Shown here: one piece after another, positions 24,489-39,173 of the stretch
Layout: the number at the start of each line of letters is the position of its first letter
Numbering within the stretch: position 1 is the stretch's first letter
Assembly: GCA_964636045.1 (NCBI GenBank)
Contig: CAZWRH010000003.1
Span: forward strand, 1 to 41,984
DNA from: an uncultured Gammaproteobacteria bacterium
GTDB lineage: Bacteria; Patescibacteriota; Microgenomatia; UBA1406; HO2-37-13b
Reading direction: 5' to 3'
DNA length: 41,984 nucleotides
The notes under the pieces: generated by a model
What the model was told of the DNA's origin: nothing
The model's database searches: none
What the model saw: only the letters and a program-made list of their open reading frames with translations
Program-made: the position numbers and the translations under genes

Positions 24489-25835
24489 TTATGTTGATTG
24501 TGGAATTGAATTTACAATTCTATCAATTTCATCCTTAAAAGACGGGTTTTTAATTGAAAGGTTTGTTATTTTATCTACTCCATGGATAATGGTAGTATGA
24601 TCTTTTCTTTTTAAAGTAAATGCAATTTCCTCAAGCTTCATTTTTAAAATATTTCTTAAAATAAACATTATTACTTGTCTAGGCAGTGCTATCTCCTCTT
24701 TTCTTGTTGAATCTTTTATTTGAGATGGTTTTATATTATAGTAGGAGCAAACATACTTAATAACATCTTGAGAACTAATGGTTTTTTTTATTTTTTCTTC
24801 TTTTTTTGAAAATTCATTTTTTACATAATCTATTGTTATTGCTCCTCCATTTTTTATAGTTTTACTATATATTTCAAGTAGTCTTCCCTCAAGTTCTCTA
24901 GTATCTCCTATTTTTTCAGCAAGAAGACTTGCTGATTCAAAGTCAATTTCAATATTTCTTTGCTTTGCTTTTATTAAAATAATAGCAGTTCTTAACTCAA
25001 AATCTGGTGGTTGAATATCTATAGTTAAACCACCTGAAAATCTCGATTTAAGTCTATCCTCAAGCTTGTTAATATCTTTTGGATGAACATCAGAGGTCAT
25101 TATTATTTGCCCTCCTCCATTAATAATAGAGTTGAATGTATGAAAAAATTCTTCTTGAATTGTATTTTTTCCAGCAATGAATTGAATGTCGTCAATTATT
25201 AAAACGTCGAGATTGCGATATTTTTTTCTAAATACTAAAGTGTTTTTTGCCCTAATCGAGTCGATTAGATCGTTAGTAAACTCTTCACTTGAACAATAAA
25301 GTATTTTTTTTGTAATATCTTTTTCAAATATTTTATGCGCTATAGCATGTGTTAAATGGGTTTTTCCTACACCTACCCCACCATATATATAAAGAGGATT
25401 ATATGAAGATCCTGGATTGTCAGAAACAGATAAAGATGCAGCATATGCTATTTCATTATTTTTTGATACTGCAAAATTATCATAAGTATATTTTGCCTGT
25501 ATTCCAGATTTTTTAATAATATCGTTCTTATTGTCTTGAAAAGTTAATATTGATAATTCCTCAAATCCATTATGATTTTCTTTCTTTCTCTCCTTTTCTT
25601 TTATTAAGAATAAAATCTTTAAATCTTCTTTATTAGAGAATTTTCTTAATAAATTTTCCATTTCACCCTTTTTTGAGTTTAAAAATATCTGCATTCCTAA
25701 GTTTTCACATGAAACAAACAAAACATTGTCTTTTATTTCTATTAAAGAAGTTTTTTTAAGTAGTGGAATAAGAACAGGAGAATTTTTACTTTCTTCAAAA
25801 TATGAGATAAAGTTTTTCCAAGTAAATCCTTCCAT
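24489..25835 (-). CDS. dnaA: chromosomal replication initiator DnaA
   Basis: AAA+ core GGVGVGKTHL, LDVLIIDDIQF and a C-terminal DNA-binding domain (KDHTTIIHGVDKI). The ORF track starts at a GTG at 25859, but that extension is made of two DnaA boxes. I prefer the ATG (MEGFTWKNF) at 25835. Confidence 0.9.
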   Translation of the reverse strand: MEGFTWKNFISYFEESKNSPVLIPLLKKTSLIEIKDNVLFVSCENLGMQIFLNSKKGEMENLLRKFSNKEDLKILFLIKEKERKKENHNGFEELSILTFQDNKNDIIKKSGIQAKYTYDNFAVSKNNEIAYAASLSVSDNPGSSYNPLYIYGGVGVGKTHLTHAIAHKIFEKDITKKILYCSSEEFTNDLIDSIRAKNTLVFRKKYRNLDVLIIDDIQFIAGKNTIQEEFFHTFNSIINGGGQIIMTSDVHPKDINKLEDRLKSRFSGGLTIDIQPPDFELRTAIILIKAKQRNIEIDFESASLLAEKIGDTRELEGRLLEIYSKTIKNGGAITIDYVKNEFSKKEEKIKKTISSQDVIKYVCSYYNIKPSQIKDSTRKEEIALPRQVIMFILRNILKMKLEEIAFTLKRKDHTTIIHGVDKITNLSIKNPSFKDEIDRIVNSIPQST

Positions 25836-25841
25836 AATATT

Positions 25842-25884
25842 TGTGGATAAATTATCCACAAATATTAATTAATACTTATCCACA
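25842..25884. promoter_or_regulatory. DnaA-box cluster (dnaA promoter / candidate oriC)
   Basis: There are three perfect 9-mers: TGTGGATAA (25842-25850, inverted), TTATCCACA (25852-25860) and TTATCCACA (25876-25884). Weaker sites are TCAACCACA at 25887-25895 and TGTGGATTA at 24470-24478 in the dnaA-dnaN spacer. Confidence 0.8.
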
Positions 25885-28045: not shown

Positions 28046-29150
28046 GCTTTACTAAGTATGGTTTGTTTATTAATTCTTCAAGCTTTTGCCATCTTTGTTT
28101 TTTAATTTGGAATGAAACATTGTCTATTAAGTTTTTAGTAGCATATGTTCCGGGTCTAGTTGAGTATATTGAAACATAAGCTTTTTCAAAGTTAATTTTT
28201 TTACATAAAGAATAAGTATTTTTAAACTCTTTATCCGTTTCTGTACAAAAACCAACAATAATGTCGGTTGTAAATTTTACTTCAGGAATATTTTTTTTTA
28301 TCTTATTGATAAGTGATAAATATTGTCTTGATGTGTACCACCTGTTCATTAATTTTAAAACCCGGTCATCACCTGATTGTAAAGGTAAATGAATTGTTCT
28401 ATCAATGTTTTTATTTTTTTTAATTACTTTGATTAATTCATTAGAAAAATCCCACGGATTACTTGACATAAAGCTTATTTTTTTAAAACCAATTTTTGAT
28501 ATTTCTTCAAGTAAGTGAGGAAATAAGGTGGGAATTCTATTTTTTCCTAAATGTTTAACATAGGTTACTTTTTTATCATGTTTTTTTAAATCAGCTCCAT
28601 AAGAATTAACATTTTGACCAAGAAGCATTATTTCTTTAAAACCTTTTTTATAAATTTCTTGACATTCTTTAATGATTTTTTCAAACGGCTTACTAATTTC
28701 CTTTCCTCTTGCATAAGGAACAACACAATAACTACAGAAATTATTACAACCATTAGATATGGAGACGTAAGCTGTCTTATTTTTTAAATCAGAATTCCCA
28801 GGTTCTTTTTTAATTAATTTTGAAATATGTACAAACTCATCAATTATTTTTAATTTTTTTTTAAATAATTTGTCTAGTTTAGGATTATTGATTGCCATCC
28901 CAGCCATACAACCAGTAATAATTATTTTTTGTTTTTTTAAACCTTTTTCTTTAAGTTTCTTTAGGTTATTAATAAGTCCATAGACCCTATTTTCAGCAGA
29001 CTCTCTAATCATGCAAGTATTTAAGATGACAACATCGGCATTTTTATAAAAAGAAGTTTTTTTAAAACCAGATTTTTTAAAAGATGATTCTATTTTGTTA
29101 GAATCTGCATAGTTTTGCTGACAACCGAAAGTTTTTAAATAGAATTTCAT
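28020..29150 (-). CDS. radical SAM methylthiotransferase, MiaB/RimO-family, apparently lacking the C-terminal TRAM domain
   Basis: 376 aa. UPF0004 N-domain (MKFYLKTFGCQQNYADS ... NTCMIRE ... GCMA) and radical SAM cluster motif CNNFCSYCVVPYARG. The protein ends shortly after the radical SAM core. Confidence 0.75.
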   Translation of the reverse strand: MKFYLKTFGCQQNYADSNKIESSFKKSGFKKTSFYKNADVVILNTCMIRESAENRVYGLINNLKKLKEKGLKKQKIIITGCMAGMAINNPKLDKLFKKKLKIIDEFVHISKLIKKEPGNSDLKNKTAYVSISNGCNNFCSYCVVPYARGKEISKPFEKIIKECQEIYKKGFKEIMLLGQNVNSYGADLKKHDKKVTYVKHLGKNRIPTLFPHLLEEISKIGFKKISFMSSNPWDFSNELIKVIKKNKNIDRTIHLPLQSGDDRVLKLMNRWYTSRQYLSLINKIKKNIPEVKFTTDIIVGFCTETDKEFKNTYSLCKKINFEKAYVSIYSTRPGTYATKNLIDNVSFQIKKQRWQKLEELINKPYLVKLKNQLKAL

Positions 29151-29578
29151 AGAGAGAGCATATTCATAATCCTTTTAGGATCTGCTTTACTTTTTAGTTT
29201 TCCAATACATATTCCAAAGATTGTTTTTGGATTTTTTTCAATTAATTCTTTATTTTCTTGTTTTATTAATTCAATTTCCTTTTTTAATTCTTCATCAGAT
29301 ATTTCTTGTGGTAAATATTCGTTTAAAATATTTATTTGATAATTGTTTTCTTCAATCAAATCATGTCTGTTTCCTTTTTTAAACATTTCGTTTGCATCAT
29401 TTAATTCTTTAATTTGTTTTCTTATTACTTGAACAATTTCTTCGTCTGTTAATTCAGTTTTTTTATCAATCTCTTTATTTTTAATAGATGACATTAAAAA
29501 TCTAAACACATTAGTTTTTTTTGTATCTTTTTCTTTTAAAGCTGTTATTAATTTTTCTTGTATTTGTTGTTTTAACAT
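29147..29578 (-). CDS. yqeY: GatB/YqeY domain protein
   Basis: Preferred start is Met13 (MLKQQIQEKLITALKEKDTKKTNVFRFLMSSIKNKEID). The YqeY-type pattern and the size (143 aa) fit. The track start is 29614. Confidence 0.7.
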   Translation of the reverse strand: MLKQQIQEKLITALKEKDTKKTNVFRFLMSSIKNKEIDKKTELTDEEIVQVIRKQIKELNDANEMFKKGNRHDLIEENNYQINILNEYLPQEISDEELKKEIELIKQENKELIEKNPKTIFGICIGKLKSKADPKRIMNMLSL

Positions 29579-29622
29579 TGTAATATTATACATTACTTTT
29601 ACTTTAAGATTCATTTTTATTT

Positions 29623-29994
29623 ATGAAAAAAAGAGATTTGTTACAAACAATTGAAAAATTTAATCAAAAAATCAATACCCATACTCCAAGTGAATTAGAA
29701 ATGTTAAGGGAGTTAAAAGTAATGAATTTAAAAATAAAAACGAACAATCTAGACATTAATAAGCTCTTAAAAGAAAAACAAAATATAATTAAAACTATTT
29801 GGAAGGTTGCTATTTTTGAAAAAATGATTTTAAAAGAATCAAAAGGAATGACAAAAAAAGAAAAAAGCAAGTTACTTGATTATTTTAATAATTATTTAAA
29901 AATAAATAATGGTAATAAGTTAGAAACAGCTTCTTCTAAAGATATTATTGAAATATTCCAAGATAATTTATTTGAGAAGAAAATAATTAATTAA
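29623..29994 (+). CDS. hypothetical protein (123 aa, Lys-rich helical)
   Basis: ORF only. No motif recognised. Confidence 0.35.
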   Translation: MKKRDLLQTIEKFNQKINTHTPSELEMLRELKVMNLKIKTNNLDINKLLKEKQNIIKTIWKVAIFEKMILKESKGMTKKEKSKLLDYFNNYLKINNGNKLETASSKDIIEIFQDNLFEKKIIN

Positions 29995-30003
29995 ATTATT
30001 AAT

Positions 30004-30582
30004 ATGAATTACCCAGTAGTTCTCGATGTTGAAACAAAACATACTTTTAAAGAGTTTTCTGATACTAAAAAATTAGGAATTTCTGTGGCATGTATTTATG
30101 ATTTTAAAGACAATAAATTAAAAAGTTTTCTTGAATCAGAGTTGTCGCAACTATTTTCTATTTTAGAAAACTCATCATTAATAATTGGATTTAATGTTGT
30201 AAGTTTTGATTTACAAGTTCTCCAAGGATATTATCCAGGGAAAATGACTCAATTTAAAACTTTTGATATTTTAGAAGATATAAGAGAAATTATCGGAAGA
30301 AGGCTTTCTTTAAACGATTTAGTATCGGCAACGCTTGGAAAGAAAAAATCCGGTCACGGTCTTCATGCTATTGAACTTTATAAAGAAGGCAAATTTGAAG
30401 AATTAAAAAACTATTGTTTTGACGATGTTATTTTAACCAAAGAATTGTTTGATTTTGGCTTAAAAAAGAATGAAATATATTATATGGACTATACAGGTAA
30501 AAGAACCATTGAGGTTAGTTGGAAAAAACATTTAAACACCAATAATCAAAAAAAAGAAATTGCCTTAACTTTACCTTTTTAA
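30004..30582 (+). CDS. RNase H-fold 3'-5' exonuclease (DEDD-type, PolB-exonuclease-like)
   Basis: 192 aa. VVLDVETK (DxE), IIGFNVVSFDLQVL (D) and HGLHAIELY...YCFDDVILT (H...D) give the DEDD pattern. Confidence 0.65.
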   Translation: MNYPVVLDVETKHTFKEFSDTKKLGISVACIYDFKDNKLKSFLESELSQLFSILENSSLIIGFNVVSFDLQVLQGYYPGKMTQFKTFDILEDIREIIGRRLSLNDLVSATLGKKKSGHGLHAIELYKEGKFEELKNYCFDDVILTKELFDFGLKKNEIYYMDYTGKRTIEVSWKKHLNTNNQKKEIALTLPF

Positions 30583-31667
30583 TAAGAGGAGTCAAATAGG
30601 GTAACACTCTTTCTTTTTGTTTTTAATCTTCCAAGTGCATTTAAATATGATCTTTCAAACTCTGCAAGTCTTTCAGGTGAGTAGTTGTTTCTATTTCCAT
30701 AATAAAAAGTATTTAAAAATTTTGGAAAACTTATTTGAGATTGGTCTATTAAAATTGATCCATCTTTAATACAGTAGGATTGGTTGTAGTAAATAAATCT
30801 AACAATATAATAATCCCATAATTTATTTACTATTTTTTCTCCAACATGATTTGGATCATAAATTAATTTACCTCCAATTAACGCCTCAGGAAAAAAACCT
30901 TTGAAATGTATATTTTGATCAGTAAAAAAATTTAAAACTTTATCTCCTGGTTTTGGCGTTGGTTTTTTTTCACCAGTAAAAGACGTTCTAATTTCACTTT
31001 TTGGACTTATTGGAGAAATTCTTTTTATATGTTCATTTTTTTTATGAATATTAAACCCATCTTGTAAACCAAATAAATGAAATTCTACCTCAATAGCGTT
31101 GGTGGTCATGGAATATAATCTAGACAACCCTTTTCCATTTTTTATTATTGGTTTTAGATTGTCAAAAGGACCAAGTTCTTCAGAAAAAATAAATCCTTTA
31201 TCTTTTAATCCTTTTATAATATTAATTTCTCTATCAATATCTTTAATATTATTTTTTTGTGGAAGAATAGATATAAGGTCAATATCAGAATGTGTTCCAT
31301 TAATTTTTCCATTTGCATAAGAACCAAAAGTAAACAAAATTGATTCAGACCCATTCATAGCCAAATGTTCAACTAATTGATTAAGTTTTTGATCAAGGTT
31401 ATTTGCATGTTCTTCTATAGACTCTGATTTACTAAATTTCTTATTAAAATAAGTTTTAAAAACATCTTTTCTAATCTTGTCTAAAGATTCACTTTCTATC
31501 ATAGGAGATGGTATTTGTATTTCACTACATATATTTCCTATTTCAGATATATTAGAAACCGCAAGTCTTGATCTTAAATTAAAAAGTTGAGTAATGTCTT
31601 CGGGTTTAATAGGATCGGTTGAAAAAGGGAGCTCTTGTCTTCTTTGATTATGTTCTATATTGGTCAT
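30579..31667 (-). CDS. Pol-beta-superfamily nucleotidyltransferase, paralog A (OAS/CD-NTase-like core motif)
   Basis: 362 aa. The motif FTFGSYANGKINGTHSDIDLISIL (GS-x10-DxD) follows a helical N-terminal region. A candidate third acidic residue lies in IEVEFHLFG. It is a paralog of 33027..34121. Confidence 0.6.
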   Translation of the reverse strand: MTNIEHNQRRQELPFSTDPIKPEDITQLFNLRSRLAVSNISEIGNICSEIQIPSPMIESESLDKIRKDVFKTYFNKKFSKSESIEEHANNLDQKLNQLVEHLAMNGSESILFTFGSYANGKINGTHSDIDLISILPQKNNIKDIDREINIIKGLKDKGFIFSEELGPFDNLKPIIKNGKGLSRLYSMTTNAIEVEFHLFGLQDGFNIHKKNEHIKRISPISPKSEIRTSFTGEKKPTPKPGDKVLNFFTDQNIHFKGFFPEALIGGKLIYDPNHVGEKIVNKLWDYYIVRFIYYNQSYCIKDGSILIDQSQISFPKFLNTFYYGNRNNYSPERLAEFERSYLNALGRLKTKRKSVTLFDSSY

Positions 31668-31719
31668 AGCCCAACTGTATATATTATGATAGTGTCATAA
31701 TATTTGCAAGGGGTTTTAT

Positions 31720-32985
31720 TTAAAAATAAATAAGAGGAATTTCCATTTCCTCAGGAGTTAATCCACCGTGATGACCGTTGAATTTAAATTCAAATACTCC
31801 TTTTTTATACCACCAAACAGATTCATTTTTATAGGGTAGGATAACTAAGTTTCCAACTCTTTTTAAAAACTTTTTTGTGATTTTTTTTGGATCTCCAAAT
31901 ATTCCTTCCTTAATTAGTTCGCGAGTTTTATAAACCTCTGCTTTACCGACTAATTTTTTTCTTAAAAAGTACAGGACTTTATTTAAATATTCATTTTTAA
32001 TATGTAGAAAAAAATCACGTGGTGAGCCAACTGGAACAATATATTTTCCATCCTTATCTGTTTTTAAGTATTTTAATATGCTCGGATATTTTTTATTTAA
32101 ATAAATTCCAGATTTTTTATTAAGTGCAACTTGACCATGATCGGCTGTAATCATTATTGTTGTATTTTTTAAGTCTATTTTATCTAAAAAATTAGTTTCA
32201 AAATTATTAAAAAAATTTAGAATCTCTTGTTTTACAAATTCAGAATCAGGTCCATATTCATGAGACATAGCATCGATGCTATCAAAATAAAAATAACAAA
32301 ATTTTTTACTAGAAGAATCATTTAAAATGTTGGTCAATTTTAATAATCCTTGAGTTAAAGTTTCAAAAGGCATTTGTTTACTACCAAATAATATTCTATT
32401 AGAATATGCATTATTGCAAATTTTGCTACTTTGAAATGCAAAAGAATCAATGTTTTGTTTTTTTAAATTTAAATAAAATTTATTTTTTGGAATAATATTT
32501 GCGAATTTTCTATTTATTTTTAATAATTCATCTCTATTCATTTTTTCACCTGTTATTGTCATGAGAATAGGAGAAATTACTTTATTAACTTTTGATTCAA
32601 AATAATTCCATTCATAAAGACAATGCTCTGGGGTGGTTAGATTTGTTGTTATTGTGGTGATTTCATTTGTGGTGGTTGATGGAAATTGAGAAGTTAGTTT
32701 TGAAATTATTCCTTGTTTTTCAATTTTTTTAAAAATAGGATGTTCATTTTTCATTTTTTCAAAAAAAGACCAACCAAATCCATCAATTACAAATAGAACA
32801 ACATTTTTAATGTCTTTTTTTTTGTTAAAAACGTCTTCTGAAAAGATATCTTTATTTTTTTTATTAGTTAAAAGGTGCTCAGCGGTATTTAATATTTTTG
32901 TAAAAGAATATTTATTTGATGGTTTTAAAAAATATTTAGAGAATTTGTTTTTATTTATTTCTTGAATAGAGATTTGGTTAATCAT
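31720..32985 (-). CDS. alkaline-phosphatase-superfamily enzyme, type I phosphodiesterase/nucleotide pyrophosphatase (NPP)-like
   Basis: 421 aa. The motifs are VVLFVIDGFGWSFF (metal Asp), QFPSTTTNE (Ser/Thr nucleophile region), YFYFDSIDAMSHEYGPDS (the D..D..H..GP motif), ITADHGQ and NGHHGGLTPEEMEIPLI. Confidence 0.65.
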   Translation of the reverse strand: MINQISIQEINKNKFSKYFLKPSNKYSFTKILNTAEHLLTNKKNKDIFSEDVFNKKKDIKNVVLFVIDGFGWSFFEKMKNEHPIFKKIEKQGIISKLTSQFPSTTTNEITTITTNLTTPEHCLYEWNYFESKVNKVISPILMTITGEKMNRDELLKINRKFANIIPKNKFYLNLKKQNIDSFAFQSSKICNNAYSNRILFGSKQMPFETLTQGLLKLTNILNDSSSKKFCYFYFDSIDAMSHEYGPDSEFVKQEILNFFNNFETNFLDKIDLKNTTIMITADHGQVALNKKSGIYLNKKYPSILKYLKTDKDGKYIVPVGSPRDFFLHIKNEYLNKVLYFLRKKLVGKAEVYKTRELIKEGIFGDPKKITKKFLKRVGNLVILPYKNESVWWYKKGVFEFKFNGHHGGLTPEEMEIPLIYF

Positions 32986-33026
32986 ATATGTTAGAAATTA
33001 TATCAACAATATAAAAATACAAGATA

Positions 33027-34121
33027 TTATTCTATTTTTAGATTATGGCTTGATGCAAGTCTACTTAGATGAAGGTAATAATGTCTTTCAAGCTCAGCTA
33101 ATCTTTGAGGAGAATAATCTTCTTTTTTGAAATGATATAAAGTATTTAAAAATTTTTCAAAATTAATTTTTTCAAAATTAATAATTCTATTTCTCTTATC
33201 ATATGCACAATTAAAATAAATAAATCTTTTTAAAATAGTCATCCATAATTTTTCTCTAATTTTTTCACCAACAAGATTTTTATCGTAAATTATATCTCCA
33301 GTTGCAACATTATCTGTAAAAAAACCTTTATACATCTCTCCATCTTCTTCAACAAAATTTTGAACACAATTAGTTGGTTTGATTAATCCTTTTCTTTCTC
33401 CAGTGAATGAAATTCTAATCTCTACTTTTGGAGATGTTGGAGCAACTCTTTCTATAGATTTTCTTCTTAAATTTAGGGAGTGTGCGTCATCTATGCCAAT
33501 TAAATGGTATTCAGTTTCTAAACCTTCTTCAGTCATAGAATATAACCTTGTCAAGCCTTTTCCAGTTTTTAATATTGGTTTTAAGTTTTCAAAAGGACCA
33601 AGTTCTTCAGAAAAAACAAACCCTCTTTCTTTTAAAGACTCAATTTTATAAATTTCTTCATTTACTTCATCATCAGTTTTCATTTTTGGTAATATGACAA
33701 TAAAATCGATATCAGAATGAGGGCTGCTAATTTTTCCATTTGCAAAAGATCCAAAAGTTATAAAGATTGAGTTTGATTGGTTAAATGTAAAATGTTTTAT
33801 TAACTCATTTAGAGAGTTATTTAATTTAGTTTCATGTTCCTTAATGTCTTGAGAGGTTGGAAAATTTTGTTCAAAATAACTATTGAAAATTTGTTTTTTT
33901 ATTTTTTGATTTATTTCTGGTTCATTTGGAGATGAAATGTTAAATTGATCACAAATATCTATAAGAGAATCAATGTCTTCAGCTCCCCAAATAGCAGTTC
34001 TAACATTAAAGAGTTGTGTTACTTTGTTTTGGGTAATATTGGTTGCTTGAGGTTTTTTTTCAGACTTATAAATTACATTTCCTGATTGTTCAGTAGTTTG
34101 AGGTATGGGTCGTCTTTCCAT
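33027..34121 (-). CDS. Pol-beta-superfamily nucleotidyltransferase, paralog B
   Basis: 364 aa. ITFGSFANGKISSPHSDIDFIVIL and LETEYHLIG. By eye, roughly half of the aligned core positions are identical to paralog A. A 28-nt stretch is identical at DNA level (33589-33616 versus 31162-31189). Confidence 0.6.
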   Translation of the reverse strand: MERRPIPQTTEQSGNVIYKSEKKPQATNITQNKVTQLFNVRTAIWGAEDIDSLIDICDQFNISSPNEPEINQKIKKQIFNSYFEQNFPTSQDIKEHETKLNNSLNELIKHFTFNQSNSIFITFGSFANGKISSPHSDIDFIVILPKMKTDDEVNEEIYKIESLKERGFVFSEELGPFENLKPILKTGKGLTRLYSMTEEGLETEYHLIGIDDAHSLNLRRKSIERVAPTSPKVEIRISFTGERKGLIKPTNCVQNFVEEDGEMYKGFFTDNVATGDIIYDKNLVGEKIREKLWMTILKRFIYFNCAYDKRNRIINFEKINFEKFLNTLYHFKKEDYSPQRLAELERHYYLHLSRLASSHNLKIE

Positions 34122-34240
34122 ATTCTATTATAAACTAATATATTAAAAATCAATATAATTTTTAATTATGTCCTATAGTATACTATATAACTAAATTAGT
34201 TTCAATATTATTTGAATTTAAATTTTATATAATATAAATA

Positions 34241-35158
34241 ATGAAGGAAAAGCTAAAGTATATAATTATTGCTGCTCGACCAAATCAATGGGTTAAAAAT
34301 CTTATTATTTTTACTTCAATTGTATTTTCTGGAAAATTATTTGATGCAAATTTATTAACTAGTACAATTTATGGTTTTATAATATTCTGTCTTCTTTCAT
34401 CAACCTCATATATATTAAATGACATAATTGATTTTCAATATGACAAAAAACATCCAGTTAAAAAAAATAGACCATTAGCTTCAGGAAAAATTACAATTCC
34501 TGATGCAACTTTTGTTGTTTTCATATTGTCTTTAACTTCTTTAACAATTGCTTTGTTTTTTTCTATTCCATTTTTTATTTTGTCTTTTGGGTTTTTGCTT
34601 TTACATTTTTTTTATTCTTTGTTTTTTAAAAAACAGCCAGTTTTAGATATTTTTACAATATCTTTTTCTTTTATGATTAGGGCTTTTGCAGGCCAGATAA
34701 TAACGGGATATCATATTCAAATATGGTTATTGCTTGCTATATTTTTTATTTCTCTTTTTATAGCAACAGTAAAGCGTCATGCAGAGTTAGTTTCTCATGG
34801 TAAAGAAACAAGATCTTCACTTTATTTTTATAAAGAGCATTTGCTTGATTTTTTAACAAACACATTTGCTACCTTAACTATTGTTTCATATTCACTTTAT
34901 ACTTTTTTAGAAAAACCACCTTTGATCCTTACTCCAATTTCTGAATATTTTTCTGGTATTTTTCCTGATTTTGAAGCAAGAAAATGGTTTATGATAACTA
35001 TTCCAATCGTTGTTTATGGAATTTCAAGGTATGCACAGCTTCTTTATGATAATAAACAAGGAGAAGCGCCTGAAAAAATAATCACACAAGACAAACCTCT
35101 TTTAACTGCTATTTTGCTTTGGGGAGTTGTGGTTATCTCTCTTATATATATCTTTTAA
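34241..35158 (+). CDS. UbiA-family prenyltransferase, decaprenyl-phosphate phosphoribosyltransferase (DPPR synthase)-like
   Basis: 305 aa. ARPNQWVKNLIIFTSIVFSG...SSTSYILNDIIDFQYDKKHPVKKNRPLASGKI matches the DPPR-synthase-type N-terminus and the NDxxDxxxD motif. About 8 TM. Confidence 0.7.
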   Translation: MKEKLKYIIIAARPNQWVKNLIIFTSIVFSGKLFDANLLTSTIYGFIIFCLLSSTSYILNDIIDFQYDKKHPVKKNRPLASGKITIPDATFVVFILSLTSLTIALFFSIPFFILSFGFLLLHFFYSLFFKKQPVLDIFTISFSFMIRAFAGQIITGYHIQIWLLLAIFFISLFIATVKRHAELVSHGKETRSSLYFYKEHLLDFLTNTFATLTIVSYSLYTFLEKPPLILTPISEYFSGIFPDFEARKWFMITIPIVVYGISRYAQLLYDNKQGEAPEKIITQDKPLLTAILLWGVVVISLIYIF

Positions 35159-35321
35159 TCAATATTTGTTCAACTTTTTTTTAGTGTTTTTATTTTTTTT
35201 GAAACTATTCTTTTTTTTAAGCATAAAAAAATAACTTGATATATTTTAATATCATTTAGACCGCTTGACATCGTATAAGTGGTGTATTACATTTTTTATT
35301 GACACTAAATATATTAAAAAT

Positions 35322-35768
35322 ATGAAATGTATATTTTGTTCAGATTCTAATACAGATGTAGTTGAGACAAGAGTTTCTGATGATGGATCAACCATAAGAA
35401 GAAGAAGAGAGTGTGGAAAATGTCAAAAAAGATTTACAACATATGAAAGAGTTGAACAGTTACCAATAATAGTTATAAAAAATGATGGAAGAAGGGAAAG
35501 ATTTGATAGAGATAAATTAAAAAAAGGAATATTTATATCAACTGGAAAAACAAGCATTACACTTGATCAAGTTGAAAAAATAGTTTCAGAAGTTGAGACA
35601 GAACTTAAGCAGGAAGATAAGATGGAAATAGAAAGTAAAATGATTGGAAATTTAGTTGCCAAAAAACTAAAAAAAATTGATAAAATTGCCTACATTAGGT
35701 TTGCATCAGTTTTTAAAAAGTTTGTAGATCTTGAAGATTTTGAACAGGAACTTAAAAAATTATTATAA
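35322..35768 (+). CDS. nrdR: transcriptional repressor NrdR
   Basis: The start is taken at MKCIFCSDSNTDVVETRVSDDGSTIRRRRECGKCQKRFTTYERVE, a canonical zinc ribbon, followed by an ATP-cone. The track ORF begins upstream at a TTG at 35265. Confidence 0.9.
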   Translation: MKCIFCSDSNTDVVETRVSDDGSTIRRRRECGKCQKRFTTYERVEQLPIIVIKNDGRRERFDRDKLKKGIFISTGKTSITLDQVEKIVSEVETELKQEDKMEIESKMIGNLVAKKLKKIDKIAYIRFASVFKKFVDLEDFEQELKKLL

Positions 35769-35780
35769 AATTAAAATCCT

Positions 35781-38159
35781 ATGAAATTAACAGGAATCAG
35801 AGAAAAGGTTTTTTTGGATAGATACTCATTAAAAGATAAAAAAGGAAATCCAATTGAGAAGAATCCTGAAAAAATGTGGAGAAGAGTAGCAAAAGGAATA
35901 GCTATGGTTGAGAAAAGAGATCTTCAACGAAAATATGAAAAAGAATTCTATGAACTTCAAAAAGATTTTAAATTTATAGCGGGTGGAAGAATTTTATCTG
36001 GCGCTGGAACAGGATACGAAGTTACTTATTACAATTGTTTTGTTATTCCATCCCCTAAAGATTCAAGAGGTGGTATTTTAGATACTTTAAAACACATGGT
36101 TGAAATTATGGCTCGTGGTGGTGGTGTTGGATTTAATATCTCAACTTTAAGACCACGTGGTGCAAGAGTTAAAAAAGTAAATGGATCATCTTCGGGTCCA
36201 ATTAATTGGGCAGAACTTTTTTCAGTTGCAACAAAAGATATTATTCAACAAGGCGGTACAAGAAGAGGAGCTTTAATGTTAATGCTTCATGATTGGCATC
36301 CAGATATTGAAGAATTTATTACAGTAAAACAAGATCATAGCAAAATAAATGGTGCAAATTTATCTGTTGCAATATCTGATGCTTTTATGAACGCTGTTGA
36401 GAAAGATTTGGATTGGGAATTGGTTTTTCCAGATGTTACAGATGAGGATTATGACAAACTTTGGACAGGAGATATTAATGAATGGAAAAGTCATGGCAAA
36501 AAAGTAGTTGTTTACAAAACTGTAAAAGCCAGAAAGATTTGGGATTTAATTGCTGAAGCAGCATGGAAAAGCGCTGAGCCAGGGGTTGTGTTTTTAGAAA
36601 GATACAATAAATATTCTAATAATTGGTATTTTGAAAGATTAAATTGTGTTAATCCATGTGGAGAACAAGGTCTTCCTGATTGGGGTGTTTGTAATTTAGG
36701 ATCTCTTAATTTAGCCGCTTTTGTTAAGTCTGGAAATATGGATTTTAAAAAGCTCTATGATGCATCAAAAATTGCTATTAGATTTTTGGATAATGTAATT
36801 GATGCAAGTTATTATTTTTACGATTCAATTAAAGAAACTCAACTTGATAGACGAAGAACTGGACTTGGAACAATGGGACTCGCTGATGCTTTAATAAAAA
36901 TGAAAATTAGATATGGAAGTCCAAATTCTTTAAAAGTAATTGAAAAAATTTATAAAACAATTAGAGATGCAGCTTATGAGGCTTCAATAGACCTTGCAAA
37001 AGAAAAAGGAACTTTTGAAAAACTCGATAAAGAAAAGTTTTTAAAAAGTGAATTTGTTAAAGATTTACCTGAAAAAATTAAAGAAAGAATTAGTAAACAT
37101 GGAATTAGAAACTCTGTTTTATTGACTCAAGCACCAACAGGATCAACTTCTTTATTAACAGGAGTGTCTTCAGGTATTGAACCAGTATTTGAATTTGTTT
37201 TTATAAGACATGATAGACTTGGAGAACATAAAATTTATCATCCTCTTTATGAAGAATGGATTAAAAAAACTAAAAATTTAAAAAATAGTAACTTAATTAA
37301 GAAGCCTGATTATTTTGTGTCTGCGTCAGAACTTACACCTGAAGAACATGTTAGAGTTCAAGGAATGATTCAAAAATATACTGACTCTTCTATTTCAAAA
37401 ACAGTTAATGCTCCAAACGATCATAAAGTTGATGATGTAAAAAATATCTATACTTTAGCTTATAAACTTGGATGTAAAGGTTTAACTTATTTTAGAGACG
37501 GCTCAAGAAGTGGAGTTTTAGAAAAGGAAACTACTGTAAAAAAAGATGCTATAGCAACAACAAAGCAAGAAGTAAAGCCAACATTTGCTATTAAACCACG
37601 ACCAATGGTAGTTCATGGTTCAACATATAGAATTAATACTCCAGTTGGAGCAGCATTTATCACAATTAATACTAATGGGGGCATGGAGCCTTTAGAAGTA
37701 TTTATTAATGTTGGTAAAGCAGGAAGTGATGTTTACGCTATGGCAGAGGGACTTGGAAGAATGATTTCTTTAGCTCTTAGGTTCTCATCTCATCTTTCTC
37801 CAACAGAAAGAATAAAAGAAGTAGCCAATCAATTATCTGATATTGGAGGAGCAAGGGTTATGGGTTTTGGAAAAGACAGAATTAGAAGTCTTCCTGATGC
37901 AATTGCTAAAGTTTTATCTACTCACTATAGTATAAATGGTCAAATGGCACCAAAGATGCTTGAGGCAGAAAAAGAAATAAAAACAGAGATTAATCAAGTA
38001 TCAACAACAACTCAAGAAACTTTGCCAATACAACAAAACATTGAAAGTCCAAAAAAAACAGGAAAAAATTTTGATATTTGTCCAAAATGTGGTGAAGCAA
38101 CTTTAGTTTATGAAGAAGGTTGTAAAAAATGCTATAACTGTGGAAATTCTGAGTGTTAA
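35781..38159 (+). CDS. nrdJ: adenosylcobalamin-dependent (class II) ribonucleotide reductase
   Basis: 792 aa. NPCGEQGLPDWGVCNLGSLNL active-site region, SKTVNAP, and a C-terminal 4-Cys ribbon CPKCGEATLVYEEGCKKCYNCG. Confidence 0.9.
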   Translation: MKLTGIREKVFLDRYSLKDKKGNPIEKNPEKMWRRVAKGIAMVEKRDLQRKYEKEFYELQKDFKFIAGGRILSGAGTGYEVTYYNCFVIPSPKDSRGGILDTLKHMVEIMARGGGVGFNISTLRPRGARVKKVNGSSSGPINWAELFSVATKDIIQQGGTRRGALMLMLHDWHPDIEEFITVKQDHSKINGANLSVAISDAFMNAVEKDLDWELVFPDVTDEDYDKLWTGDINEWKSHGKKVVVYKTVKARKIWDLIAEAAWKSAEPGVVFLERYNKYSNNWYFERLNCVNPCGEQGLPDWGVCNLGSLNLAAFVKSGNMDFKKLYDASKIAIRFLDNVIDASYYFYDSIKETQLDRRRTGLGTMGLADALIKMKIRYGSPNSLKVIEKIYKTIRDAAYEASIDLAKEKGTFEKLDKEKFLKSEFVKDLPEKIKERISKHGIRNSVLLTQAPTGSTSLLTGVSSGIEPVFEFVFIRHDRLGEHKIYHPLYEEWIKKTKNLKNSNLIKKPDYFVSASELTPEEHVRVQGMIQKYTDSSISKTVNAPNDHKVDDVKNIYTLAYKLGCKGLTYFRDGSRSGVLEKETTVKKDAIATTKQEVKPTFAIKPRPMVVHGSTYRINTPVGAAFITINTNGGMEPLEVFINVGKAGSDVYAMAEGLGRMISLALRFSSHLSPTERIKEVANQLSDIGGARVMGFGKDRIRSLPDAIAKVLSTHYSINGQMAPKMLEAEKEIKTEINQVSTTTQETLPIQQNIESPKKTGKNFDICPKCGEATLVYEEGCKKCYNCGNSEC

Positions 38160-38167
38160 TTAGCTTT

Positions 38168-38641
38168 ATGAAAATATATACAAAGACTGGTGATACAGGA
38201 TCAACTTCTTTGATTGGTAGACGAGTTTTAAAAACTAATTCTATTATTGAACTGAATGGAAATATTGATGAGTTAAGCGCTTTCATTAGTCTTACTATTT
38301 TAAACATTAAAAACAAAAGCAATATTGATTTATTAAAAGATATTCAAACTGACTTTATACAAATAATGAGTTATATTGCTGGCAAAAAAGACAGTAGTAT
38401 TGATTTTGATAAAAAGATAAATAAATTTGAACAAATGATTGATTTATTATCTTCTAAAAAAGATAAACCAAATCGTTTTATTCTAGTTAAAAATAACAAT
38501 TTAAGTGTTTATTTTAATTTATTAAGAACTATTACAAGAAGAGTGGAAAGAAGAGTAATTTTAAGTTTTAAAAAAGATAAAAAATTAATTAGCTATTTTA
38601 ATAGGTTGTCCGATTTGTTTTTTACTATGTCTTATGTTTAA
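38168..38641 (+). CDS. pduO: ATP:cob(I)alamin adenosyltransferase, PduO-type
   Basis: The start is at MKIYTKTGDTGSTSL, the family N-terminal signature. Later, RFILVKNN...RTITRRVERR corresponds to the FILPGG...ARTVCRRAER region but is divergent. Confidence 0.75.
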   Translation: MKIYTKTGDTGSTSLIGRRVLKTNSIIELNGNIDELSAFISLTILNIKNKSNIDLLKDIQTDFIQIMSYIAGKKDSSIDFDKKINKFEQMIDLLSSKKDKPNRFILVKNNNLSVYFNLLRTITRRVERRVILSFKKDKKLISYFNRLSDLFFTMSYV

Positions 38642-39173
38642 ACAAAATATTAAAAATAGAGCAGCTTTTATTTCTACTTTAGTATTAATATTGACAGGTA
38701 TTTTTTCAAGATTTATTCCTCATCCGCCTAACTTTACTCCAATAAATTCAATTACCTTATTTTCTTCAAGTAAATTTTCTAAGAAAATAACAATCTTTAT
38801 TCCTTTAGTAATAATGTTTATTTCTGATCTTGTCTTAGGACTCCATTTAACAATGATTTTTGTTTATTTAAGCTTAATAATTATTTATTTAATTGGTTTT
38901 TATTTTAAAAAAATAATTAATCAATATAATTTGTTTTTATTTAGCTTTGTTTCCTCAATAATCTTCTTTTTAATAACCAATTTTGGAGTTTGGATGTTAT
39001 TTAATATGTATCCTCATAATTTGTCAGGACTTGTAAGTTGCTATTATATGGCAATTCCATTTTTTAAAAATACTTTAATTGGAGACTTGATTTATAATTA
39101 CTTGTTTTATTATAGTTTTAGATTTTTAAATAATTATTTTTTGAAGAAAATCAATAATTGGGGAATGCTGTGA
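38634..39173 (+). CDS. small polytopic membrane protein (about 5-6 TM; DUF6580-like by recollection), candidate B12-related transporter component
   Basis: 179 aa. RFIPHPPNFTPINSITLF N-terminal motif. The size and topology resemble ECF S-components or solitary vitamin transporters. The gene overlaps the pduO end by 8 nt. Confidence 0.5.
   Translation: MFKQNIKNRAAFISTLVLILTGIFSRFIPHPPNFTPINSITLFSSSKFSKKITIFIPLVIMFISDLVLGLHLTMIFVYLSLIIIYLIGFYFKKIINQYNLFLFSFVSSIIFFLITNFGVWMLFNMYPHNLSGLVSCYYMAIPFFKNTLIGDLIYNYLFYYSFRFLNNYFLKKINNWGML

What the first reader, a model, noticed from the sequence alone, without database searches (positions are those of the whole stretch)
30004..34121. Operon of two paralogous OAS/CD-NTase-like nucleotidyltransferases flanking an NPP-type phosphodiesterase, converging on a DEDD exonuclease
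**What the sequence shows**
- Three co-directional minus-strand genes are separated by 41 and 52 nt. The order is NTase B (364 aa), an alkaline-phosphatase-superfamily NPP-like enzyme (421 aa) and NTase A (362 aa).
- Both NTases have a helical N-terminal region and then hhFGS(Y/F)ANGKI..(T/P)HSDIDhIhIL. This is the GS-x10-DxD signature shared by Pol-beta-fold enzymes such as OAS, cGAS/DncV-like CD-NTases and poly(A) polymerases.
- An acidic beta-strand follows (EVEFHL in A, ETEYHL in B), then a conserved C-terminal domain of about 150 aa.
- The middle gene has the metal and nucleophile motifs of type I nucleotide pyrophosphatase/phosphodiesterases (DGFG, PSTT, D..D..SHEYGP, DHG, HHGG). That family includes ENPP1, which degrades cyclic and 2'-5'-linked nucleotides.
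- The paralogs retain a 28-nt perfectly identical DNA stretch (31162-31189 and 33589-33616, encoding FSEELGPF), although overall they are only roughly half identical by eye.
- A DEDD 3'-5' exonuclease ends 4 nt inside NTase A, from the opposite strand.

**Hypothesis**
- This is a self-contained module that synthesises and turns over a nucleotide-derived signal or oligonucleotide. That could be defence or signalling related.
- The alternative is a nucleotide-activated surface-polymer modification pathway. The UbiA/DPPR-synthase-like gene lies divergently next door.
- I do not recognise this arrangement as a described system.
Basis: partly seen in the sequence, partly recalled or inferred. Interest (0 to 1): 0.7.

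Follow-up and report, generated by a model that had tools for sequence, protein, structure and literature searches.

The report
Novel nucleotidyltransferase–phosphodiesterase gene module in CPR bacteria
Two copies of a very rare, previously undescribed nucleotide-transferring enzyme flank a common nucleotide-cleaving enzyme, and this pairing recurs in 11 lineages of ultra-small (CPR) bacteria, so they almost certainly work together; they look like nucleotide housekeeping rather than an anti-virus alarm system.

Summary
**Observation.** It is confirmed. NTase B (33027-34121), an NPP-type enzyme (31720-32985) and NTase A (30579-31667) lie co-directionally on the minus strand.

**The NTases**
- They have an intact Pol-beta catalytic triad.
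- They belong to a tiny family: 43 clusters among 1.84 billion representative proteins. The named members are all Patescibacteria.
- A confident AlphaFold model (pLDDT 93) has no close solved relative (TM at most 0.28).
- They are not CD-NTase/OAS, aminoglycoside NTases or PAP/TUTases in any testable sense.

**The linkage**
- In 11 of 11 informative lineages the same NPP family lies within 3.2 kb of the NTase. It is directly adjacent in 9, in varied orientations.
- The NTase-NPP-NTase triad recurs once (L015).
- A Cof-type HAD phosphatase is a frequent third partner. It is fused to the NTase in 9 clusters, but none was found in this window.

**What is not part of it**
- The NPP is a core, widespread, cytoplasmic gene. 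The NTases are accessory: close relatives lack them.
- The DEDD exonuclease and the UbiA gene do not travel with the module.
- Neighbours are nucleotide or nucleoside metabolism genes. There are no defence effectors.

**Best reading.** This is a nucleotide-conjugate make-and-break module within nucleotide salvage. The substrate is unknown.

The parts
33027..34121 (-). NTase B, 364 aa. It has four parts: an N-terminal helical domain (about residues 31-113), a Pol-beta palm (119-209), a beta-rich conserved region (222-279) and a C-terminal helical domain (284-358).
   Evidence: ORF. PF01909 at E 1.8e-7. AF2 model pLDDT 93, pTM 0.89. Family profile.
33705..33752 (-). Catalytic GS...DxD motif of NTase B (G124 S125 ... 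D137 I D139).
   Evidence: Translation GSFANGKISSPHSDID. G124, D137 and D139 are invariant in 35 members.
33510..33512 (-). Third catalytic carboxylate of NTase B (E204, on strand ETEYH).
   Evidence: The column is E or D in nearly all members.
31720..32985 (-). NPP-type (alkaline-phosphatase superfamily, COG1524-like) phosphodiesterase/pyrophosphatase, 421 aa, cytoplasmic. Nucleophile T104/T105. Metal ligands D68, D238, H242, D282, H283, H406.
   Evidence: PF01663 at E 5.6e-24, full length. ENPP3/5/4 are the best PDB matches. Family invariants. More than 4000 homologues.
30579..31667 (-). NTase A, 362 aa. It is the sister paralogue of B (47% identity).
   Evidence: PF01909 at E 6.8e-5.
31278..31325 (-). 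Catalytic GS...DxD motif of NTase A (G115 S116 ... D128 I D130).
   Evidence: Translation GSYANGKINGTHSDID.
31083..31085 (-). Third catalytic carboxylate of NTase A (E195, on strand EVEFH).
34122..34240 (.). A 119-nt AT-rich divergent intergenic region. It presumably holds the promoter of the three-gene operon. This is inferred only.
   Evidence: Sequence. There is a promoter-like match at 34205-34177 on the minus strand, but consensus matches are not significantly enriched in this AT-rich DNA.

Best explanation
**What it is**
- The three genes form a conserved enzyme module.
- The two paralogous NTases are active Pol-beta-fold nucleotidyltransferases of a new, CPR-restricted family.
- Each would use NTP.Mg2+ to attach an NMP to an acceptor, releasing PPi. 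The acceptor is most probably a small nucleoside- or nucleotide-like, or phosphorylated, metabolite.

**How the partners fit**
- The resident cytoplasmic NPP-type enzyme acts on the same class of NMP-phosphodiester or pyrophosphate bond and releases a 5'-NMP.
- In many lineages a Cof-type HAD phosphatase, fused to or next to the NTase, removes a terminal phosphate from the acceptor or the product.

**Biological role**
- The module sits within nucleotide-pool and salvage metabolism of bacteria that cannot make nucleotides de novo.
- It is an accessory add-on to a core NPP, not a CBASS/OAS-type immune signalling system.

**Shown and inferred**
- Shown: family membership at superfamily level, intact catalytic residues, the conserved linkage, the accessory status and the gene context.
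- Inferred: the identity of the acceptor, and that the NPP cleaves the NTase product.
For: **Catalytic competence**
- G124/S125/D137/D139 are invariant, and E204 is conserved as E or D.
- All six metal ligands and the Thr nucleophile of the NPP are at least 97% conserved.

**Linkage**
- The NPP lies within 3.2 kb of the NTase in 11 of 11 informative lineages.
- It is directly adjacent in 9, in convergent, divergent and co-directional arrangements: window, L001, L014, L015, L018, L020-23, L025, L026, L027.
- In L009 and L005 the two are separated only by nucleotide-metabolism genes.
- L015 repeats the pattern NTase-HAD-NPP-NTase.

**HAD partner**
- A Hydrolase_3/Cof HAD is fused at the C-terminus in 9 of 43 clusters.
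- It is the next gene in L009 and L015, and lies nearby in L001.

**Small-molecule nucleotide context**
- L009 has Udk and a HIT protein.
- L005 has PyrE, PyrF, PfkB and a second, DxDxT-motif HAD-like gene with no family hit.
- L026 has PfkB. L027 has an AAA_28 kinase. L001 has dCTP deaminase.
- L018 and L022 have Ham1 and LysRS. An NTase-free NPP locus (L013) has GuaB, GuaA and Ham1.
- The window has NrdR and a class II RNR 1.1 kb away.

**Accessory status of the NTases**
- L002 is 82% identical in nucleotide sequence and has the NPP abutting the DEDD gene with no NTase.
- L003 is 89% identical and collinear with L018, but carries other genes in the slot that holds the NTase in L018.

**No defence signature**
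- There are no viral-contig hits.
- Capped Cof-type HADs characteristically act on small molecules (established knowledge of the HAD superfamily).
Against: - No substrate is identified, and the context evidence is guilt by association.
- The simple scheme of NTase making and NPP breaking the same bond is a futile cycle unless it is regulated, or unless the NPP acts upstream by producing the acceptor.
- The weak structural and profile similarities that exist are to polynucleotide-directed enzymes: Pol lambda/mu/TdT, TUTase and PAP.
- This window has no HAD partner within 42 kb.
- Repeated lineage-specific duplication and patchy presence are also typical of conflict systems.
Confidence: 0.45

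Rival explanations
1. **Nucleic-acid 3'-end tailing or repair module.**
- The NTases are template-independent terminal transferases acting on RNA (tRNA or decay intermediates) or DNA 3'-OH ends.
- The NPP acts as a 3'-to-5' phosphodiesterase, or as a 2',3'-cyclic or 3'-blocked-end phosphodiesterase.
- The HAD acts as a 3'-phosphatase.
- This would split into separate proteins the NTase plus phosphodiesterase plus phosphatase activities combined in E. coli CCA-adding enzyme, or in bacterial PolX-PHP.
For: - The best Foldseek hits are TUTase MEAT1, Pol mu/lambda/TdT and PAP, at probability 0.9-1.0 over about 200 columns.
- The family profile aligns to the Pol lambda helix-hairpin-helix plus palm region, including an 'IWGA' match, at E 0.012.
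- NPP neighbours are often RNA or tRNA genes.
  - PNPase lies directly upstream in L015, and rpsO-pnp flanks the cassette in L005 and L009.
  - LysRS, a tRNA-binding-domain gene and SerRS occur in L018 and L022.
  - MiaB-like, YqeY and a DEDD exonuclease occur in the window.
Against: - All structural scores are weak (TM at most 0.28, E at least 6e-4), and PDB is dominated by such enzymes.
- No PAP_assoc, thumb or RNA-binding domain is detected.
- The HAD is a capped Cof-type (TIGR00099), a class that normally excludes macromolecular substrates.
- The RNA-gene neighbours belong to the NPP's own conserved synteny and are present without the NTase (L003, L004, L013, L002).
- Nucleoside kinases and PyrE/PyrF fit small molecules better.
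Confidence: 0.27
2. **Nucleotide second-messenger or defence system.**
- The NTases synthesise a linear or cyclic oligonucleotide signal.
- The NPP degrades it, as ENPP1 does for cGAMP.
- The system serves signalling or anti-phage defence.
For: - The fold class is Pol-beta, with an N-terminal helix before the GS motif.
- There are weak partial matches to CBASS cyclase models (PADLOC E 1e-5, NCBIfam CBASS_cyclase_b E 0.069).
- The distribution is patchy and accessory, with repeated paralogue duplication and cassette replacement in a variable slot.
Against: - No effector, receptor or sensor gene (SAVED, TIR, STING, nuclease, transmembrane protein) is seen in the gene tables of the loci examined.
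- SMODS hits 1 of 38 members. cGAS aligns at TM 0.21.
- The NPP is a core gene conserved with housekeeping synteny and is identical in role with or without the NTase.
- The flanks are not a defence island. Nothing was found on viral contigs.
Confidence: 0.1
3. **Protein nucleotidylylation switch.**
- The NTase AMPylates or UMPylates a protein, possibly the NPP itself at its Thr nucleophile or at a Tyr, to regulate it, as GlnE and GlnD do.
- Alternatively the NPP removes the modification.
For: - The best NCBIfam hits for both paralogues are the N-terminal NTase domain of GlnD, the PII uridylyltransferase (E 7e-5).
- Obligate adjacency of an accessory gene to one specific core gene fits a regulator-target pair.
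Against: - The GlnD scores are about 21 bits against cut-offs above 1000, and no GlnD_UR_UTase domain is detected.
- This idea does not explain the fused capped HAD phosphatase or the recurrent nucleoside kinases.
Confidence: 0.08
4. **NDP-sugar or envelope-precursor pathway.**
- A kinase, a HAD phosphatase and the NTase make a nucleotide-activated sugar, with the same logic as HldE/GmhB for ADP-heptose.
- The NPP-like protein acts as a phosphomutase or pyrophosphatase.
For: - The kinase plus HAD plus NTase combination recurs (L005, L026).
- An RmlC-like epimerase lies next to the NPP in L001.
- UbiA/DPPR synthase lies next to NTase B in the window.
Against: - The UbiA adjacency is not conserved.
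- No glycosyltransferase or flippase is consistently present.
- No sugar-1-phosphate NTase of the Pol-beta fold comes to mind (from memory).
- The NPP matches PF01663 over its full length, and matches the mutase family PF01676 only locally (E 0.0055).
Confidence: 0.07

Closest known systems
Non-canonical terminal nucleotidyltransferases and family X polymerases (TUTase MEAT1/Cid1, PAP, Pol lambda/mu/TdT)
   Same: - They share the Pol-beta palm with hG[GS]-x(9-13)-DxD and a third carboxylate on the next-but-one strand.
- A helical domain precedes the palm.
- They are the top Foldseek and profile matches.
   Different: - TM is at most 0.28 and sequence E at least 0.01.
- There is no PAP_assoc or central domain and no Pol X thumb or 8-kDa domain.
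- The beta-rich region 222-279 and the C-terminal helical domain have no detected counterpart.
- The partners (NPP, Cof-HAD) are different.
cGAS/DncV-like CD-NTases and OAS (CBASS, OAS-RNase L)
   Same: - They share the Pol-beta fold with a helix preceding the GS motif.
- The concept of a synthase paired with an NPP-type degrading enzyme also applies to cGAS and ENPP1.
   Different: - SMODS, PADLOC and NCBIfam models do not match beyond the GS-DxD core.
- cGAS aligns at TM 0.21 and rmsd 15-16 A.
- No Cap effectors are present, and the locus is not in a defence island.
E. coli CCA-adding enzyme (NTase plus an HD domain with 2',3'-cyclic phosphodiesterase, 2'-nucleotidase and phosphatase activities) and bacterial PolX-PHP
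   Same: - They combine the same three activity classes in one system: nucleotidyl transfer, phosphodiesterase and phosphatase. This comparison is from established knowledge and was not tested here.
   Different: - The folds are entirely different for all three activities: class II NTase with HD, or PHP, against this NTase with NPP and HAD.
- No evidence here shows that tRNA or DNA is the substrate.
Type I nucleotide pyrophosphatase/phosphodiesterases (ENPP1-7, Xanthomonas NPP; Pfam PF01663, COG1524)
   Same: - The middle gene has the full NPP core: a Thr nucleophile and six metal ligands.
   Different: - It is a cytoplasmic, about 420-aa stand-alone form conserved in CPR and Ktedonobacteria.
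- It matches no NCBIfam equivalog, and its substrate is unknown.
HldE/GmhB-type kinase-phosphatase-nucleotidyltransferase pathways (ADP-heptose)
   Same: - A PfkB kinase, a HAD phosphatase and an NTase recur together (L005, L026).
   Different: - The NTase fold is different (Rossmann-like cytidylyltransferase in HldE).
- No isomerase or glycosyltransferases are present.
- The comparison is one of logic only.

Membership tests
Pol-beta nucleotidyltransferase superfamily | hG[GS] ... DxD motif plus a third acidic residue on a following beta-strand, in an alpha-beta-alpha-beta-alpha-beta palm. | tested here: met
   PF01909 is above its cut-off for both paralogues (31.9 and 23.6 bits against 21). 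It hits 30 of 38 family members. The AF2 secondary structure fits.
CD-NTase / SMODS (CBASS cyclases) | A match to SMODS/CD-NTase profiles over both lobes. | tested here: not met
   PADLOC cyclase best E is 1.1e-5, covering only residues 76-151. NCBIfam CBASS_cyclase_b scores 12.7 bits against a cut-off of 200. PF18144 hits 1 of 38 members at E 0.024.
CD-NTase / OAS / cGAS | A bilobed cGAS/OAS-like fold (Mab21/OAS1_C C-lobe). | tested here: not met
   Foldseek places cGAS at ranks 16 and 47, with TM 0.21-0.22 and rmsd 15-16 A, using a pLDDT-93 model.
CD-NTase / CBASS | An adjacent Cap effector or sensor gene (SAVED, TIR, patatin, endonuclease, transmembrane, STING). | tested here: not met
   None appears in the window or in the gene tables of the related loci examined. 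Several neighbouring genes there carry no Pfam hit.
Non-canonical PAP / TUTase | A PAP-associated or central domain following the catalytic domain. | tested here: not met
   PF03828 is not detected in any of 38 members. Only the palm model PF22600 matches weakly. MEAT1 aligns at TM 0.22 and rmsd 19 A.
Family X DNA polymerases | HhH fingers plus palm plus thumb. | tested here: inconclusive
   The profile aligns to Pol lambda residues 90-220 at E 0.012. Foldseek gives probability 1.0 but TM 0.23-0.28 over about 200 columns. The HhH glycines are not conserved and no thumb counterpart is seen.
   PDB profile hits to streptomycin 3''-adenylyltransferase and ANT(3'')(9) are at E 0.064-1 and cover the core only. 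None is among the top 50 Foldseek hits.
Type I NPP (PF01663) within the alkaline-phosphatase superfamily | A full-length profile match, a Thr nucleophile and six metal ligands (D, D, H, D, H, H). | tested here: met
   PF01663 scores 85.8 bits against 23, covering profile positions 1-324 of 342. ENPP3/5/4 are the best PDB matches. Invariants are D68, T104/105, D238, H242, D282, H283, H406.
   The window protein has no PF00884 hit. The N-terminal 60 residues are hydrophilic.
Cof-type HAD-IIB phosphatase (the partner found in related loci) | DxDGT motif I, GDxxxD/ND motif IV and a C2B cap. | tested here: met
   TIGR00099 at E 4.6e-15 and PF08282 at E 1e-13 for the L001 HAD. Motifs are visible, though P0132 has NYEGT. 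No homologue was found in this window.

The most novel reading that the evidence does not exclude
- The NTase family is a previously unrecognised class of Pol-beta enzyme that builds a pyrophosphate- or phosphodiester-linked dinucleotide from NTP plus a salvaged mononucleotide or nucleoside. The product could be a dinucleoside polyphosphate, or an NAD- or FAD-like dinucleotide cofactor.
- The resident NPP acts as the matching pyrophosphatase, the Cof-HAD as the mononucleotide phosphatase, and the neighbouring nucleoside kinases feed the cycle.
- Together these would be a non-orthologous, CPR-specific cofactor or alarmone salvage loop.
- The NPP-LysRS operons would then reflect Ap4A housekeeping.
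Probability: 0.15. Interest if true: 0.8.

Novelty: new variant of a known kind. Interest (0 to 1): 0.55.

Why it matters
**Why CPR biology cares**
- CPR/Patescibacteria have minimal genomes and lack de novo nucleotide synthesis. How they manage nucleotide pools is an open question.

**What this finding adds**
- It defines a new, structurally distinct nucleotidyltransferase family with a confident model and no solved relative.
- It identifies two conserved enzyme partners for that family.
- It gives the first functional handle on a very widespread but uncharacterised cytoplasmic NPP-type enzyme, which has more than 4000 homologues and often sits in operons with class I LysRS, Ham1 and GuaAB.

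**Why it can be followed up**
- The module has only two or three soluble enzymes, so it is directly testable in vitro.

**What it corrects**
- A tempting 'CBASS-like defence' reading is not supported.

Tried and rejected
**Searches limited by the tools**
1. The word-indexed homologue search with NTase B found only the query itself. With the 35-sequence profile it found only the query and P0160. The index is too coarse for this family, and the exhaustive HMMER scan was needed.
2. The AF2 model built on a 2-sequence alignment was useless (pLDDT 49). It was replaced by a model built on 38 sequences.
The fused-clade alignment A7 gave no new genomes.
4. A genome scan with the window NPP found no close relative among species representatives, so the window lineage could not be named more precisely than CPR.

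**Negative results**
5. The viral-contig scan and the BFVD fold search found nothing.
6. Rfam gathering-threshold matches in 29000-36000: none.
7. The promoter and terminator scan was uninformative in 25% GC DNA.
8. The repeat search found no terminal repeats or mobile-element hallmarks around either NTase.
9. Three literature searches found no description of this family or module.

**Ideas rejected**
10. I tested whether the 387/401-aa Pfam-less gene near the NPP in L003 and L004 is a divergent NTase. It is not: there is no HMM hit, and its N-terminus looks Ham1/Maf-like.
11. I tested whether the DEDD exonuclease and UbiA belong to the module. They do not.

Full report
**1. The observation**

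The ORF scan shows three co-directional minus-strand genes:
- NTase B, 33027-34121, 364 aa.
- An NPP-like gene, 31720-32985, 421 aa.
- NTase A, 30579-31667, 362 aa.

Other points that check out:
- The spacers are 41 and 52 nt.
- A DEDD-like ORF (30004-30582, +) overlaps the NTase A stop by 4 nt.
- A UbiA/DPPR-synthase-like gene starts divergently at 34241.
- A and B are 47% identical (E 3e-104).
- The 28-nt identity at 31162-31189 and 33589-33616 is real and is the longest shared run.
- With both protein sequences fixed and codons drawn from the window's own usage, a run that long arose in 0.45% of simulations. It is mildly unusual and of no functional weight.
- The catalytic strings are GSFANGKISSPHSDID and GSYANGKINGTHSDID, so the spacing is GS-x11-DxD. 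They are followed by ETEYH and EVEFH.

**2. What the NTases are**

- Library scans recognise only the generic Pol-beta core.
  - PF01909 scores 23.6 and 31.9 bits.
  - PF18765 and PF22600 are below threshold.
  - There are weak partial hits to GlnD, MntA and CBASS-cyclase models.
- An exhaustive HMMER search of 1.84 billion representative proteins with the A+B profile found only 43 clusters at E no greater than 1e-3. The family is real but very rare.
- The named members are from the Patescibacteria group and Candidatus Parcubacteria. They are annotated only as 'nucleotidyltransferase domain-containing' or 'hypothetical'. Genome hits include a Roizmanbacteria MAG.
- Across 35 members G124, D137 and D139 are invariant. 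S125, G129, G187, G189, R192, R225, E234, G266 and F267 are nearly so. The E204 column is E or D in almost all. The enzymes look catalytically competent.
- With the 38-sequence alignment AlphaFold2 gives a confident model: pLDDT 93, pTM 0.89.
- Foldseek finds nothing close to that model in PDB.
  - The best E is 6e-4 and TM is at most 0.28.
  - The top hits are TUTase MEAT1 and Pol mu, lambda and TdT.
  - cGAS aligns at TM 0.21 with rmsd 15-16 A.
- Foldseek also finds nothing in BFVD.
- The family profile aligns marginally (E 0.012) to the helix-hairpin plus palm region of Pol lambda.
- No Pfam model covers residues 210-364 in any member.

Conclusion: this is a new family of the Pol-beta superfamily. 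It is not a CD-NTase/OAS, not an aminoglycoside NTase, and not a PAP/TUTase by any defining feature I could test.

**3. What the middle gene is**

- PF01663 matches end to end (E 5.6e-24).
- The closest solved relatives are ENPP3, ENPP5 and ENPP4.
- The Thr nucleophile and all six metal ligands are at least 97% conserved in 120 homologues.
- There is no signal peptide, no membrane segment and no sulfatase match. It is therefore a cytoplasmic NPP-type enzyme.
- Unlike the NTases it is abundant. More than 4000 homologues have E below 1e-10, with 40-49% full-length identity across CPR and Ktedonobacteria.
- In CPR it often sits in a housekeeping arrangement: class I LysRS, then NPP, then Ham1 and SerRS, or NPP followed by GuaB, GuaA and Ham1.

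**4. The linkage**

I built HMMs for the NTase, the NPP and the HAD and scanned every locus fetched. I then added three loci for the fused clades.

In 11 of 11 lineages with enough flanking DNA, an NPP of this family lies within 3.2 kb of the NTase.

It is directly adjacent in nine, in every possible orientation:
- Window: NTase-NPP-NTase.
- L001, L018 and L020-23: convergent, separated by about 10-16 nt or overlapping by 4 nt.
- L014, L026 and L027: co-directional.
- L025: divergent.
- L015: NTase-HAD-NPP-NTase, which repeats the triad.

In the other two the intervening genes are nucleotide-metabolism genes:
- L009: HAD, uridine kinase and a HIT protein.
- L005: PyrF, a second HAD-like gene, PfkB and PyrE.

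For a single-copy gene in a genome of about 1000 genes this cannot be chance. The variety of arrangements also rules out simple inherited synteny.

A third partner emerges, a Cof-type HAD-IIB phosphatase:
- It is fused to the C-terminus of the NTase in 9 clusters.
- It is the next gene in L009 and L015, and lies nearby in L001.
- The window has no homologue of it in 42 kb.

**5. Core gene and accessory genes**

- The closest relative found (L002) has an NPP 82% identical in nucleotide sequence and 81% identical in protein.
  - It keeps the NPP-DEDD-orf-YqeY synteny of the window.
  - Its NPP stop lies about 25 nt from the DEDD gene, with no NTase A.
  - A different divergent gene occupies the position of NTase B.
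- L003 and L018 are collinear at 82-89% nucleotide identity. The slot downstream of the NPP holds an alpha/beta hydrolase plus a 387-aa Ham1/Maf-like protein in L003, and the NTase in L018.
- A neighbour-joining tree shows window A and B as sister paralogues. L015a/b lie in one clade and L001/L008a are sisters, so duplications are lineage-specific.
- No repeats or mobile-element marks flank the genes.
- The NTases are therefore accessory genes that repeatedly settle next to a resident, core NPP.
- The DEDD exonuclease and UbiA occur only in L002, that is, without NTases. They are neighbours by lineage synteny, not module parts.

**6. Context and mechanism**

- The window flanks are housekeeping genes.
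  - On one side: DnaA, a MiaB-like radical-SAM enzyme and YqeY.
  - On the other: NrdR, class II RNR and a cobalamin adenosyltransferase.
- In the fetched loci the recurrent neighbours are nucleoside, ribose or nucleotide enzymes. They are Udk, PfkB (twice), an AAA_28 kinase, PyrE/PyrF, dCTP deaminase, HIT, Ham1 and GuaAB.
- No effector-like or sensor genes appear, and nothing was found on viral contigs.
- Capped Cof-type HADs typically act on small phosphorylated metabolites.
- My best reading (confidence 0.45) has four parts.
  - The NTases attach NMP from NTP to a small nucleoside- or nucleotide-like acceptor.
  - The NPP handles the same NMP-diester or pyrophosphate bond class.
  - The HAD trims a phosphate.
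  - All of this sits within nucleotide-pool or salvage metabolism.
- Only the catalytic competence, the linkage and the context are shown. The acceptor and the order of steps are inferred.
- The main rival (0.27) is template-independent tailing or repair of RNA or DNA 3' ends.
  - The weak Pol X and TUTase similarities favour it, as do the RNA and tRNA genes near the NPP.
  - The capped HAD weakens it. So does the fact that those RNA genes accompany the NPP even without the NTase.
- Signalling or defence (0.10), protein nucleotidylylation (0.08) and NDP-sugar synthesis (0.07) remain possible.

**7. Novelty**

- Three literature searches found no description of this family or module.
- It is a new family and a new gene module built from known enzyme classes, so I rate it a new variant of a known kind.
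- It is interesting mainly because the pairing is so clean, because the NTase fold periphery is new, and because it offers a route to the function of a very common uncharacterised CPR enzyme.

Noticed in passing
L003:7253-9200 versus L018:6909-8050: There is a variable cassette slot immediately downstream of the core NPP, between otherwise 82-89% identical flanks. L003 carries a dienelactone-hydrolase-like gene plus a 387-aa protein with a Ham1/Maf-like N-terminus (FLATGNQNKAKR...). L018 carries the NTase instead.
   Followed up: partly
L008:175-1284 and L008:1433-1891 (same MAG as L001): Two further NTase paralogues lie in tandem on a short contig of the MAG that also carries the L001 NTase. 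That genome therefore has at least three copies, so paralogue multiplicity is a recurrent trait of the family.
   Followed up: partly
L010:3-842, 1009-1965, 2040-2492: One NTase homologue lies on a 2.8-kb contig binned as 'uncultured Pseudomonadales'. Next to it are a gene whose sequence looks like a cell-wall amidase and a small Cys/His-rich (HNH-like) gene, both judged by eye. This may be a mis-binned or phage-derived fragment. It is the only informative-length exception with no NPP in the 2 kb downstream.
   Followed up: no
window 30004-30582 (+): The DEDD-type 3'-5' exonuclease convergent with NTase A is conserved (74% identity) next to the NPP in the NTase-free relative L002. It is a lineage neighbour of the NPP and not part of the NTase module. 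It only just passes Pfam PF01612 (23.9 against 23.6 bits).
   Followed up: yes
window 24489-25859 (-): A DnaA gene (PF00308 at E 9e-64) lies about 5 kb from the module, so the region is probably near the replication origin. The GC-skew sign changes around 26 kb in the composition table.
   Followed up: no
window 35265-39173 (+): NrdR, a class II (B12-dependent) ribonucleotide reductase with a C-terminal TSCPD/Zn-ribbon tail, a PduO-type cobalamin adenosyltransferase and a DUF6580 protein form a co-directional run. It starts 1.1 kb from NTase B. This looks like a deoxynucleotide-supply cluster with its own B12 activation.
   Followed up: partly
L003:4422-7266, L018:8043-10881, L013:5401-8278: The NPP gene is linked to class I lysyl-tRNA synthetase in several CPR genomes. 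The start and stop overlap by about 11 nt in L003 and L018, and the genes are 19 nt apart in L013. LysRS is the classic source of Ap4A and ENPP-type enzymes hydrolyse ApnA, so the core role of the NPP might be dinucleoside-polyphosphate clearance. This is speculative.
   Followed up: no
L009:10916-11635 (+): A 239-aa protein with no Pfam or NCBIfam hit carries a clear HIT motif (HEHMHAL). It lies between uridine kinase and the NPP in the Roizmanbacteria cassette.
   Followed up: partly
P0132 (L027:8001-10157): In one fused NTase-HAD the HAD motif I reads NYEGT instead of DxDGT. The nucleophile Asp is lost, so its phosphatase half may be inactive.
   Followed up: no
window 33379-33651 (+): A 90-aa ORF lies antisense inside NTase B. 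It is almost certainly a spurious ORF in AT-rich DNA.
   Followed up: no
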